Under the pieces are notes generated by a model. The model was not told the DNA's origin and searched no databases. It worked only from the letters and a program-made list of their open reading frames with translations. From the NCBI RefSeq assembly GCF_009914755.1, contig NC_060943.1: a DNA stretch of 64,000 nt; one strand, given 5' to 3'. The stretch is from the human T2T-CHM13v2.0 reference genome, Homo sapiens. A program made the translations under genes and the position numbers. Shown piece by piece: positions 30,908 to 38,390 of the stretch (position 1 is the stretch's first letter; each line of letters begins with the position of its first letter).

Positions 30908-31023
30908 GTCCTCCCTGGAACAGAAGCTGTCCCGCCTGGAAGCAAAGCTGAAGCAGGAGAACCGGGAGGCCCGGCGGAGGATCGACCTCAACCTGGATAT
31001 CAGCCCCCAGCGGCCCAGGCCCA
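30900..31023 (+). CDS. MAP2K7: MAP2K7 (MKK7) exon 1
   Basis: MAASSLEQKLSRLEAKLKQENREARRRIDLNLDISPQRPRP|gtaagc; 124 nt. Confidence 0.97.
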
Positions 31024-32762: not shown

Positions 32763-32810
32763 TTATTGTGATCACTCTAAGCCCTGCTCCTGCCCCGTCC
32801 CAACGAGCAG
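32763..32810 (+). CDS. MAP2K7: MAP2K7 alternative 48-nt cassette exon 2 (gamma isoform)
   Basis: ccccatccag|TTATT...GCAG|gtacca; IIVITLSPAPAPSQRA; frame-preserving. Confidence 0.9.
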
Positions 32811-37328: not shown

Positions 37329-37407
37329 GTGAGCCTTGGCGGCTACCCCGGCTGCGCCCCACACCCCAGGCCGGTGCTGAGGCTCCCTCCTGTCCCTGCC
37401 TGTGCAG

Positions 37408-37527
37408 CAAATGCGGCGCTCCGGGAACAAGGAGGAGAACAAGCGCATCCTCATGGACCTGGATGTGGTGCTGAAGAGCCACGACTGCCCCTACATCGTG
37501 CAGTGCTTTGGGACGTTCATCACCAAC
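37408..37527 (+). CDS. MAP2K7: MAP2K7 exon 6
   Basis: QMRRSGNKEENKRILMDLDVVLKSHDCPYIVQCFGTFITN. Confidence 0.96.
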
Positions 37528-37650
37528 GTGAGTACCTGGCCGCGCCCTGCAGCGTCTCCTCCTCCCTCACCCCTGCCCCTTCCTAGGGAGCAGAGCCTCT
37601 GGGGGGTGGGCCGGAAGACACAGCTCCCCCGGGTGCCCCTCTCCCTGCAG

Positions 37651-37758
37651 ACGGACGTCTTCATCGCCATGGAGCTCATGGGCACCTGCGCTGAGAAGCT
37701 CAAGAAGCGGATGCAGGGCCCCATCCCCGAGCGCATTCTGGGCAAGATGACAGTGGCG
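37651..37758 (+). CDS. MAP2K7: MAP2K7 exon 7
   Basis: TDVFIAMELMGTCAEKLKKRMQGPIPERILGKMTVA|gtgagt. Confidence 0.95.
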
Positions 37759-37880
37759 GTGAGTGACCAGGCGGGGCTTGCACTGGGCAGGATGACAGAG
37801 GCGGTGAGTGACCAGGCGGGGCGTGCACTGGGCAAGATGACAGTGGCGGTGAGTGGCCAGGTGGGGCGTGCACCGGGCAG
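37738..37880 (+). repeat. 3 x 45-bp tandem repeat spanning the exon 7 donor
   Basis: Units start at 37738, 37783 and 37828; each contains GCG|GTGAGT. Confidence 0.95.
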
Positions 37881-37934
37881 GTGGCCTTGGGTCTGTGCCC
37901 CCTGCCACATGCACCCCCCTCTGCGTGCCTGCAG

Positions 37935-38114
37935 ATTGTGAAGGCGCTGTACTACCTGAAGGAGAAGCACGGTGTCATCCACCGCGACGTCAAGCCCTCC
38001 AACATCCTGCTGGACGAGCGGGGCCAGATCAAGCTCTGCGACTTCGGCATCAGCGGCCGCCTGGTGGACTCCAAAGCCAAGACGCGGAGCGCCGGCTGTG
38101 CCGCCTACATGGCA
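37935..38114 (+). CDS. MAP2K7: MAP2K7 exon 8 (HRD, DFG, SKAKT activation loop)
   Basis: [26 protein letters not shown]...[26 protein letters not shown]. Confidence 0.97.
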
Positions 38115-38204
38115 GTGAGTGGGGGCCCCCCAGCGGGGGAGGGGGTGGGGGCTGGGAGGCCGGCCCCAGCCTTGGAGATACGTCTCCTCCTCCCCCCCCT
38201 GCAG

Positions 38205-38285
38205 CCCGAGCGCATTGACCCCCCAGACCCCACCAAGCCGGACTATGACATCCGGGCCGACGTATGGAGCCTGGGCATCTCGTTG
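38205..38285 (+). CDS. MAP2K7: MAP2K7 exon 9
   Basis: [27 protein letters not shown]. Confidence 0.96.
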
Positions 38286-38390
38286 GTGAGTTGGGGCCCT
38301 CCCCTGTTCTCCAGCCAGGAGTGAGGGCTTCTGGGGGACTCGGAGGGAGGAGAACATAAACCTGTCCAGCCCTGCCCGTCTCCCTCCCAG

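What the first reader, a model, noticed from the sequence alone, without database searches (positions are those of the whole stretch)
37738..37934. MAP2K7 exon-7 5' splice site is triplicated in frame by a 45-bp tandem repeat
Seen: three 45-bp units each carry the identical donor 9-mer GCG|GTGAGT (GT at 37759, 37804, 37849). The spacing is a multiple of 3 with no stops. Donor 2 would add VSDQAGLALGRMTEA. Donor 3 would add a further [15 protein letters not shown], restoring LGKMTVA directly before IVKAL. Remaining introns would be 176, 131 or 86 nt, all spliceable. Known: this is the start of kinase helix alphaE, and the alphaD-alphaE region hosts kinase inserts in other kinases. Inference: MKK7 isoforms of +15/+30 aa, or a mechanism that silences two perfect competing donors. 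Copy-number variation would make this a splicing VNTR.
Basis: partly seen in the sequence, partly recalled or inferred. Interest (0 to 1): 0.8.

Follow-up and report, generated by a model that had tools for sequence, protein, structure and literature searches.

The report
Triplicated splice donor in MAP2K7 intron 7
A short 45-base tandem repeat straddling the end of MAP2K7 exon 7 really does place two extra in-frame copies of the splice donor inside the intron, the same layout already described for F7, LMNB2, IFI6 and CBS, and nothing found here shows that the extra donors are used.

Summary
A 45-bp, 3.2-copy tandem repeat (37738-37879, 91% match, no indels) has its first unit across the exon 7/intron 7 border. 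GCG|GTGAGT therefore recurs with GT at 37759, 37804 and 37849. All three are in frame and stop-free, leaving introns of 176, 131 and 86 nt.

Three details need correcting:
- The donor is of ordinary strength, at the 60th percentile of 386 chr19 donors, not "perfect".
- The junction lies in the middle of helix alphaE, not at its start.
- A fourth in-frame GT exists at 37861.

All 4 RefSeq transcripts use donor 1. None of the 128 public MKK7 protein records in which the junction could be read carries an insert there. No paper found mentions the repeat.

The layout is a published class: minisatellites whose first unit spans an exon-intron boundary. In F7 IVS7 and LMNB2 only the upstream donor is used; in IFI6 and CBS the next two are used as well.

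The most likely reading is latent pseudo-donors that are spliced out with the intron. Five unit-private substitutions argue that the triplication is old and real. Low-level +15/+30-aa isoforms and copy-number variation could not be tested here. This is a new member of a known kind, of modest interest.

The parts
37651..37758 (+). MAP2K7 exon 7 as annotated, ending ...CTGGGCAAGATGACAGTGGCG (LGKMTVA)
   Evidence: All 4 RefSeq transcripts end the exon at 37758. The translation matches 12 PDB MKK7 sequences over residues 1-37 only.
37738..37782 (+). Repeat unit 1: the last 21 nt of exon 7 plus the first 24 nt of intron 7. It holds the authentic donor (GT at 37759).
37783..37827 (+). Repeat unit 2, wholly intronic in the annotation. 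It holds pseudo-donor 2 (GT at 37804) and has 2 private changes (37790 A>G, 37799 T>A).
37828..37872 (+). Repeat unit 3, wholly intronic in the annotation. It holds pseudo-donor 3 (GT at 37849) and has 2 private changes (37856 A>G, 37862 C>T).
37873..37881 (+). Partial fourth unit, CCGGGCAGG. It is a short direct repeat of the unit start CTGGGCAAG, and so a likely microhomology for the slippage that made the duplication (inference).
   Evidence: TRF counts 3.2 copies. Beyond this stretch the sequence matches the units at chance level, 15-16 of 45 positions.
37858..37866 (+). Fourth in-frame candidate donor, CAG|GTGGGG (GT at 37861), created by the C>T change in unit 3
   Evidence: PWM 9.02 bits, 56th percentile of 386 donors, frame offset 0
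37773..37891 (+). Set of G runs: GGGG at 37773, 37818 and 37863; GGG at 37785, 37830, 37875 and 37889. One GGGG lies 14 nt downstream of each donor.
   Evidence: The role as an intronic enhancer of the upstream donor is inferred from PMC1919487 (passages).
37907..37913 (+). The only adenines (37907, 37909, 37913) in the last 55 nt of the intron apart from the AG, so the likely branch-point area. By subtraction they lie 58-64 nt downstream of donor 3.
   Evidence: positions of A; assignment as branch point is inference
37933..38114 (+). Acceptor AG (37933-37934) and exon 8 (37935-38114, starts IVKAL)

Best explanation
A 45-bp segment spanning the exon 7/intron 7 border of MAP2K7 was duplicated twice in tandem. 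The likely mechanism is slippage between the short direct repeats CYGGGCARG that flanked it. The array starts inside exon 7 and extends downstream, so the original exon end and donor stay in place as unit 1, and units 2 and 3 lie inside intron 7.

The spliceosome uses the first, most upstream donor (GT 37759). The two copies (GT 37804, 37849) are latent pseudo-donors that are removed with the intron. This is the behaviour shown experimentally for the F7 IVS7 minisatellite and reported for LMNB2.

Two things probably favour the upstream site. One is position: exon definition, or 5'-to-3' selection of the first adequate donor after exon 7. The other is context: the sequence right after donor 1 is G-run-rich and intron-like.

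What is shown: the anatomy, the donor identity and strength, the annotation, and the age signal. What is inferred: the silence of donors 2 and 3 in cells, and the reason for it.

One corollary is also inferred. A variant that destroys donor 1 would probably shift splicing to donor 2 and give an in-frame +15-aa protein rather than exon skipping.
For: - Anatomy.
- Annotation: all 4 of 4 RefSeq MAP2K7 transcripts, including the MANE select NM_145185.4 and a Gnomon model, end exon 7 at 37758.
- Solved structures: all 12 of 12 distinct PDB MKK7 sequences match only the canonical 37 residues of the extended exon.
- Protein records: 128 of 146 stored public MKK7 records run ...LGK[MV]TVA straight into IVKAL. 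The other 18 lack one of the two motifs. None contains VSDQ or SDQAG.
[quoted passage not shown] It lists LMNB2 and PDGF as the same case.
- Controls in this genome: I recovered the F7 array (37 bp x 6.1), the IFI6 array (12 bp x 24.8) and the LMNB2 reiterated donor (8 more copies at about 105-nt steps, with RefSeq select using the first).
- Context: a 5-mer exon/intron log-odds score puts the donor1-donor2 segment at -0.26. That is the 5th percentile of 362 exon tails and the 61st of 303 intron heads. The exon 7 tail scores +0.39.
- G-rich elements between competing 5' splice sites favour the upstream one in PLP/DM20 (PMC1919487, passages).
- Real and old, not an assembly artefact: 5 unit-private substitutions in 114 unconstrained sites, with P = 0.0007 for 5 or more at 0.6% divergence.
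- No coding constraint on the would-be insert: all 3 differences inside it change the amino acid.
Against: - No transcript data could be consulted, and RefSeq does not list minor isoforms exhaustively.
- The three 9-mers are identical and above median strength (59.6th percentile).
- Use of donors 2 or 3 is sterically possible. The introns would be 131 and 86 nt, and the candidate branch adenines lie 58-64 nt from donor 3. Short human introns peak near 85 nt, according to the abstract of PMC4463651 as seen in the listing.
- The extensions are in frame, so nonsense-mediated decay would not remove such mRNAs.
- In 2 of the 5 precedents listed in PMC1557585 (IFI6 and CBS), the two next pseudo-sites are used constitutively.
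- Among the comparators I scored, the one with used pseudo-sites has the strongest donor (IFI6 85.5th percentile; F7 14.5th; LMNB2 32.9th). MAP2K7 lies in between.
- The donor2-donor3 segment is ambiguous in the 5-mer score (+0.07).
- No RNA structure singles out donor 1: fold z-scores are +1.45 and +1.22.
- The protein search listed only 120 of 556 hits, and its 90% clustering hides isoforms.
Confidence: 0.6

Rival explanations
1. Donors 2 and/or 3 are used at a reproducible level alongside donor 1, as in IFI6 and CBS. This would give MKK7 isoforms with 15 or 30 extra residues.

With donor 3, the duplicated ALGKMTVA would rebuild the N-terminal half of alphaE. The original copy would then loop out as an insert between alphaD and alphaE.
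For: - Identical, above-median donors, in frame and without stops.
- Feasible intron lengths.
- IFI6 and CBS precedents (PMC1557585 Introduction).
- The 10 residues before the junction would be [10 protein letters not shown] with donor 3, against ERILGKMTVA normally. That is 8 of 10 identical by my count.
Against: - 0 of 4 RefSeq transcripts use these donors.
- 0 of 146 stored protein records carry the insert.
- A search aimed at the insert found nothing among named proteins of 81-257 aa.
- 0 papers contain the peptides.
- The MAP2K7 splicing papers I opened concern exon 2 or the 5' end.
- The donor1-donor2 segment is intron-like.
- All 3 differences inside the insert are non-synonymous, so there is no sign of coding constraint.
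- The insertion point lies inside a core helix.
Confidence: 0.25
2. The array is a copy-number-variable minisatellite. The three-copy state of this reference would be only one allele, so donor multiplicity differs between genomes. This could hold together with either reading above.
For: - The class it belongs to is polymorphic in F7 (5-9 repeats), CBS and LMNB2, according to PMC1557585.
- The units are 91% alike and head-to-tail, with no indels.
Against: - There are only 3 full copies.
- Each unit carries private substitutions (1, 2 and 2). The pattern is star-like, as expected of an old array that has not been homogenised by frequent unequal exchange.
- No paper links MAP2K7 with VNTR or minisatellite: 3 irrelevant papers and 0 papers respectively.
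Confidence: 0.12
3. The extra donors are kept because U1 snRNP bound at them helps splicing of this short GC-rich intron. They would act as an intronic enhancer rather than neutral debris.
For: Only indirect. All three 9-mers have stayed intact, while 5 changes accumulated elsewhere in the units. That enhancement by neighbouring U1 sites has been reported is recalled from memory, not from a call.
Against: - Three 9-mers make up 27 of 135 positions, so escaping 5 hits by chance is likely.
- In F7 no autonomous regulating element was found in the neighbouring intron, judging by the section title seen in the outline and by the Discussion.
- MKK7 records of other vertebrates show the same exon junction. 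I could not see their introns, so no conservation test was possible.
Confidence: 0.03

Closest known systems
F7 intron 7 37-bp minisatellite (PMC1557585)
   Same: - The first repeat unit spans the exon 7/intron 7 boundary.
- The authentic donor is followed by identical pseudo-donors.
- Only the upstream one is annotated or used.
- The array sits in the same kind of GC- and G-run-rich short-unit setting. I recovered it in this genome (37 bp x 6.1 copies, 96% match, 6 copies of TGG|GTGGGT).
   Different: - The F7 unit is 37 bp, not a multiple of 3, so most pseudo-sites would shift the frame. The MAP2K7 unit is 45 bp and in frame.
- The F7 donor is weak (14.5th percentile) while the MAP2K7 donor is at the 59.6th.
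- F7 has 5-9 copies and is polymorphic. MAP2K7 has 3 copies of unknown variability.
- Silence of the pseudo-sites was shown by experiment in F7. Here it rests on annotation only.
LMNB2 intronic minisatellite
   Same: The donor is reiterated in frame at about 105-nt steps, with 8 further identical 9-mers. RefSeq select uses the first. PMC1557585 reports that only the authentic site is used.
   Different: LMNB2 has a longer unit (about 105 bp), many more copies, a long intron (1302 nt) and a weaker donor (32.9th percentile).
IFI6 (6-16) intron 2 and CBS intron 13 minisatellites
   Same: Both are boundary-spanning repeats with reiterated donors. The IFI6 unit is in frame (12 bp) like the MAP2K7 unit.
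   Different: In both genes the two next pseudo-sites are used constitutively (PMC1557585 Introduction). No such transcripts are annotated for MAP2K7. The IFI6 donor is stronger (85.5th percentile) and its spacing is only 12 nt.
PLP1 PLP/DM20 competing 5' splice sites with a G-rich enhancer between them (PMC1919487)
   Same: G runs located downstream of the upstream donor, between two competing donors, favour the upstream donor (passages). Each MAP2K7 donor has a GGGG 14 nt downstream.
   Different: The PLP1 sites are not repeat-derived, differ in sequence and are both used in a regulated way. The role of the MAP2K7 G runs is untested.
Known MAP2K7 alternative splicing (exon 2 skipping; 21-nt alternative acceptor of exon 10)
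   Same: Same gene, and both are in-frame events (PMC13285186 passages).
   Different: Those events are annotated and studied. They are at 32763-32810 and at 38370/38391, not at exon 7.

Membership tests
Minisatellite whose first unit spans an exon-intron boundary (F7 IVS7 class) | Head-to-tail tandem array of a unit of ten or more bases | tested here: met
   Period 45, 3.2 copies, 91% matches, no indels, score 242
Minisatellite whose first unit spans an exon-intron boundary (F7 IVS7 class) | First unit contains the annotated exon end and the authentic donor | tested here: met
   Unit 1 is 37738-37782 and exon 7 ends at 37758 in 4 of 4 transcripts
Minisatellite whose first unit spans an exon-intron boundary (F7 IVS7 class) | Following units carry donor sequences identical to the authentic one | tested here: met
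   GCGGTGAGT at 37756, 37801 and 37846
Minisatellite whose first unit spans an exon-intron boundary (F7 IVS7 class) | Downstream pseudo-donors unused while the authentic donor is intact | tested here: inconclusive
   Consistent with the annotation and with protein records, but no RNA data were available
Minisatellite whose first unit spans an exon-intron boundary (F7 IVS7 class) | Pseudo-donors become active when the authentic donor is destroyed | not testable with these tools
   Needs a minigene or a natural donor-1 variant with RNA
VNTR (variable number tandem repeat) | Copy number differs between genomes | not testable with these tools
   Only one human assembly was at hand. Private substitutions in each unit suggest an old array.
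Tandem alternative 5' splice sites giving protein isoforms (IFI6 type) | In-frame spacing without stop codons | tested here: met
   Spacing is 45 nt, and 37651-37848 translates without a stop
Tandem alternative 5' splice sites giving protein isoforms (IFI6 type) | Transcripts or proteins that use the downstream donors exist | tested here: not met
   0 of 4 RefSeq transcripts; 0 of 146 stored protein records; 0 hits for the insert among named proteins of 81-257 aa. The reach was limited: 436 of 556 hits were not listed, and there were no RNA data.
Kinase insert between helices alphaD and alphaE | Extra residues lie in the loop between the two helices | tested here: not met
   The junction falls after residue 224, inside the modelled helix 215-236. 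With donor 3, the duplicated LGKMTVA might rebuild the helix and turn the event into a loop insert.

The most novel reading that the evidence does not exclude
The two in-frame pseudo-donors may be more than debris, in either of two ways.

(a) They are used at a low level, or in particular tissues or stress states. This would give a primate MKK7 variant with a 30-aa loop between alphaD and a rebuilt alphaE, not far from the cysteine in MELMGTCAEKL. That this cysteine is the target of covalent inhibitors is recalled from memory.

(b) They act as a built-in backup. Loss of donor 1 would then yield an in-frame +15-aa kinase instead of a null allele, which would change how splice-site variants at this exon should be read.
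Probability: 0.2. Interest if true: 0.55.

Novelty: new member of a known kind. Interest (0 to 1): 0.3.

Why it matters
MAP2K7 would be a compact natural test case for how the spliceosome chooses among identical donors. It has three copies, 45 nt apart, all in frame, so nonsense-mediated decay cannot hide use of the wrong one.

It also matters for variant interpretation. A change at the exon 7 donor may be rescued by the next copy as an in-frame insertion in helix alphaE rather than causing exon skipping. In addition, short reads from donor 3 share 21 exonic nt with donor 1 and could be misassigned.

If the extra donors are silent, as I think, the feature is a neutral relic of an old duplication and an ordinary member of a class described since the 1990s.

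Tried and rejected
RNA structure that hides donors 2 and 3. Rejected: the fold of 37651-37960 has z = +1.45 and intron 7 alone has z = +1.22, so neither is more stable than shuffled sequence.

Repeat family or dispersed element. Rejected: the 161-nt stretch matches only itself in the whole assembly. It is not in the masked-repeat list, which holds only stretches of 100 bases or more.

Antisense gene or RNA. The 288-aa ORF on the minus strand (37494-38357) has no Pfam family. No Rfam match overlaps the repeat.

Protein evidence for the insert, three searches:
- Insert-focused search, candidate proteins of 81-257 aa: 17 candidates, none at E <= 0.001, 102 unnamed candidates left out.
- 186-aa read-through query: 44 hits among 74 candidates, 471 left out.
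- Stored 297-aa lizard record P0035, region 108-180: 556 hits among 577 candidates, 120 listed, 422 left out.

None of the 146 stored proteins carries the insert. The 436 unlisted hits, where an interrupted match would rank, were not seen.

Literature:
- MAP2K7+VNTR: 3 papers, irrelevant by title and abstract.
- MAP2K7+tandem repeat+splice: 16 papers, 15 listed, none on this by title and abstract.
- MAP2K7+minisatellite: 0 papers.
- Predicted peptides: 0 papers.
- MAP2K7+A5SS: 15 papers. I opened passages of four. PMC13285186 concerns exon 2. PMC13550377 reports exon skipping. PMC7108129 does not state the event in its text. In PMC6498542 the forward primer maps to 30798 at the gene's 5' end, and one reverse primer has no match in the window, as expected of a junction primer.
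- VNTR+exon-intron boundary+splice donor: 3 papers, only the F7 paper relevant.
- Supplementary tables of genome-wide repeat or splicing-QTL surveys were closed and may list this locus.

McCullough and Berget 1997 (PMC232310) is not held. It is cited only through PMC1919487 and from recall.

Comparison with other primates or with mouse was not possible: no non-human vertebrate genome is reachable with these tools.

The +15 and +30 isoforms were not modelled, because a joined sequence may not be typed.

Full report
WHAT IS THERE

Tandem Repeats Finder reports one array at 37738-37879 with period 45, 3.2 copies, 91% matches, no indels and score 242. The units are 37738-37782, 37783-37827 and 37828-37872. 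Each consists of 21 nt identical or nearly identical to the end of exon 7, followed by 24 nt like the start of intron 7.

RefSeq ends exon 7 at 37758 in all 4 of its 4 MAP2K7 transcripts: NM_145185.4 (select), NM_001297555.2, NM_001297556.2 and XM_054321466.1. Unit 1 therefore holds the authentic donor, and units 2 and 3 lie in the intron.

The 9-mer GCG|GTGAGT occurs at 37756, 37801 and 37846. The window holds 4 copies in all against 0.35 expected, and 0 of 100 shuffles reached 4.

Reading from exon 7 through to 37848 gives no stop. It adds VSDQAGLALGRMTEA and then [15 protein letters not shown]. Exon 8 starts with IVKAL. The alternative introns would be 176, 131 and 86 nt.

The stretch is unique in the assembly. 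Among 376 MANE-select donors in 264 kb of chr19, only this one has its 9-mer again within 200 nt downstream in its own intron.

CORRECTIONS AND ADDITIONS

I built a position weight matrix from 386 annotated GT donors on chr19, taken from the window plus 20 gene-dense 10-kb stretches. On it the 9-mer scores 9.22 bits, the 59.6th percentile (median 8.70, maximum 12.86). It is a good ordinary donor, not a perfect one.

The C>T difference in unit 3 creates a fourth in-frame candidate, CAG|GTGGGG, with GT at 37861 (9.02 bits, 56th percentile). By subtraction from the coordinates it would leave a 74-nt intron.

To place the junction in the protein I modelled a stored macaque MKK7 (P0062, 419 aa) with a 33-sequence alignment. 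Mean pLDDT is only 64, but blocks 201-230 reach 77-87. The model has helices at 202-209 and 215-236. The second is [22 protein letters not shown], and the exon 7/8 junction falls after residue 224. The junction is therefore 10 residues into a 22-residue helix. By recall of kinase nomenclature this helix is alphaE, which ends just before the HRD motif at residue 240. The junction is in its middle, not at its start.

With donor 3, the ten residues before the junction would read [10 protein letters not shown] instead of ERILGKMTVA. The helix could therefore be rebuilt, and the first copy would loop out. This is inference; I could not model it.

ORIGIN AND AGE

After unit 3 the similarity stops, except for CCGGGCAGG at 37873, which echoes the unit start CTGGGCAAG. 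The remainder matches the units at 15-16 of 45 positions, which is chance level. A 45-bp segment flanked by a short direct repeat is the usual substrate for slippage, so I infer that this is how the duplication arose.

The units differ at five positions, each private to one unit:
- Unit 1: position 41.
- Unit 2: positions 8 and 17.
- Unit 3: positions 29 and 35.

This is a star-like pattern. Five changes in 114 sites free to vary is 4.4% (95% interval 1.4-10.2%). At 0.6% divergence, the probability of five or more changes is 0.0007. The 0.6% is my recalled figure for the human lineage since the split from chimpanzee.

The triplication is therefore real rather than an assembly artefact, which would give identical copies. 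It is probably much older than that split. The region is CpG-rich, so the clock is rough.

All five changes fall on the second codon position of the exon 7 frame and change the amino acid. Three of them lie inside the would-be insert. There is thus no sign of coding constraint on the insert, although five sites cannot prove anything.

IS THE INSERT KNOWN ANYWHERE?

RefSeq has no transcript that uses donor 2 or 3. The 12 distinct MKK7 sequences in the PDB match only residues 1-37 of the 66-residue extended exon.

I ran three protein searches:
- One aimed at the insert itself, over named proteins of 81-257 aa. It scored nothing: 17 candidates, with 102 unnamed ones left out.
- One with a 186-aa read-through query. 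It gave 44 partial MKK7 records.
- One with a stored 297-aa lizard record, region 108-180. It gave 556 hits, of which the best 120 were listed.

Of the 146 proteins stored from these searches:
- 127 have LGK-M/I/L-T-V-A directly followed by IVKAL-type sequence.
- One more, P0135, has LGKVTVA|IVKAL.
- 18 lack one of the motifs, being fragments or distant invertebrate kinases.
- None contains VSDQ or SDQAG.

There are limits. An interrupted match would rank low, and 436 hits were not listed. The database is clustered at 90% identity, so an isoform can hide behind its cluster's representative. Proteins known only from samples were excluded.

In the literature I found nothing on this repeat. The searches were MAP2K7 with VNTR (3 papers, irrelevant), with tandem repeat and splice (16 papers, none on it), with minisatellite (0 papers), the predicted peptides (0 papers), and MAP2K7 with A5SS (15 papers). 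From the last set, the four papers I opened deal with exon 2, exon skipping or the 5' end. Supplementary tables were closed.

THE KNOWN CLASS

A search for tandem duplications at splice donors led to Borensztajn et al. 2006 (PMC1557585). I read the abstract, Introduction and Discussion.

In the human F7 gene, a 37-bp minisatellite has its first unit across the exon 7/IVS7 border, so the authentic donor is followed by identical pseudo-sites. [quoted passage not shown] Pseudo-sites strengthened up to a consensus value of 91 still did not compete; only a perfect consensus did. They could attribute the effect neither to RNA structure nor to neighbouring intronic elements.

[quoted passage not shown] It lists LMNB2 and PDGF, where only the authentic site is used, and IFI6 (6-16) and CBS, where the two next pseudo-sites are used as well.

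I checked that these arrays are visible in this same assembly with the same tools:
- F7: 37 bp x 6.1 copies, 96% match, with six TGG|GTGGGT.
- IFI6: 12 bp x 24.8 copies.
- LMNB2: the donor AAG|GTGACC of the annotated exon is repeated eight more times at about 105-nt steps in a 1302-nt intron, and RefSeq select uses the first.

The MAP2K7 array is a small, previously unremarked member of this class.

WHY DONOR 1 IS PROBABLY CHOSEN

Four lines of evidence bear on this.

First, the precedent of upstream-most selection in F7.

Second, sequence context. I computed a 5-mer log-odds score trained on exon tails against intron heads of 381 other donors:
- Exon 7 tail: +0.39.
- Donor1-donor2 segment: -0.26, the 5th percentile of 362 exon tails and the 61st of 303 intron heads.
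- Donor2-donor3 segment: +0.07, which is ambiguous (26th and 92nd percentiles).
- After donor 3: -0.32.

This score is crude. The training set is small, and the reference distributions were not held out.

Third, each donor is followed 14 nt downstream by GGGG, and there are further GGG runs. In PLP1, a G-rich element lying between two competing donors enhances the upstream one through hnRNP H/F (PMC1919487, passages). That paper cites the alpha-globin duplicated-donor experiments of McCullough and Berget 1997, which I could not open.

Fourth, RNA folding gives no reason to favour any donor: z = +1.45 and +1.22.

WHAT SPEAKS FOR USE OF THE DOWNSTREAM DONORS

- The donors are identical and of above-median strength.
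- The only adenines near the acceptor (37907, 37909, 37913) lie 58-64 nt from donor 3 by subtraction. An 86-nt intron sits at the peak of the short-intron distribution, according to the abstract of PMC4463651 seen in the listing.
- The products are in frame and would escape nonsense-mediated decay.
- Two of the five precedents use their pseudo-sites.
- Among my three scored comparators, the one with used pseudo-sites has the strongest donor (IFI6 85.5th percentile, LMNB2 32.9th, F7 14.5th), and MAP2K7 lies between them. With three points this is a hint only.

VERDICT

The isoform alternative has no support in annotation, protein records or papers, but it cannot be excluded without RNA data. 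Copy-number variation was not testable, and the private substitutions suggest a stable old array.

I put 0.6 on silent pseudo-donors and 0.25 on reproducible minor use. The rest goes to variability of the allele or an enhancer role.

The feature is a new member of a known kind. Its main uses would be as a clean in-frame model for donor choice, and as a caution when interpreting exon 7 donor variants and short-read junction counts.

Noticed in passing
window 37861 (9-mer 37858-37866): A fourth in-frame candidate donor, CAG|GTGGGG, arose from the C>T change in unit 3. It scores 9.02 bits, the 56th percentile of 386 donors. Using it would add VSGQ beyond donor 3 and leave a 74-nt intron.
   Followed up: partly
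window 37778, 37790, 37799, 37856, 37862: All five differences between the repeat units fall on the second codon position of the exon 7 reading frame, and all are non-synonymous. Five of five on one given codon position has a chance of about 0.4%. I have no explanation, and it may well be chance.
   Followed up: partly
window 37755-37819: TRF also reports a weak 15-bp sub-period (4.3 copies, 64% matches, 14% indels, score 49). The 45-bp unit may itself be three degenerate 15-mers, or this may be chance.
   Followed up: no
window 37381-37938 (+ strand): The exon 6/7 reading frame stays open for 186 codons through intron 6 (123 nt), exon 7 and all of intron 7. Retention of intron 6 alone would be in frame and stop-free. 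Retention of intron 7 (176 nt) shifts the frame in exon 8.
   Followed up: no
window 38115-38204 (MAP2K7 intron 8, 90 nt): Six weak miRNA-family matches all fall on this G/C-rich intron, at 20-22 bits against gathering scores of 70-99. Its fold is not better than shuffles (z = -0.75), so there is no good evidence for a mirtron.
   Followed up: yes
window 38370 / 38391: Exon 10 has two annotated acceptors 21 nt apart, a known in-frame +7-aa isoform (NM_001297556.2 and XM_054321466.1 against the select transcript).
   Followed up: no
window 30908-30950: A 21-bp, 2.0-copy tandem repeat (82% match) lies inside the coding part of MAP2K7 exon 1.
   Followed up: no
proteins P0014 (Corapipo altera, partial) and P0017 (Malurus melanocephalus, partial): Two bird MKK7 records carry repeated blocks around this same region. 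P0014 has the whole exon 7-8 block twice. P0017 has three IVKALLYLKDKH-like pieces in a row. They are probably assembly or prediction artefacts, but they could reflect tandem repeats at the neighbouring acceptor in birds.
   Followed up: partly
protein P0087 (Macaca mulatta, UniRef, 478 aa): This macaque record contains an extra stretch between ...TIGGQ and RYQAEIN that looks like a retained intron upstream of the kinase domain, plus a different C-terminus. It is unrelated to the exon 7 junction, which is canonical in this record.
   Followed up: no
G000 chr19:2409616 (LMNB2; loci L024-L026): The LMNB2 donor AAG|GTGACC recurs 8 times at offsets 105, 210, 315, 420, 525, 630, 840 and 944 in a 1302-nt intron. 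The spacing is mostly in frame. A genome-wide count of such donors would be easy with the full sequence.
   Followed up: partly
window 37494-38357 (- strand): A 288-aa ATG ORF runs antisense to exons 7-9. It has no Pfam family. It is most likely a by-product of the GC-rich coding sequence opposite.
   Followed up: yes
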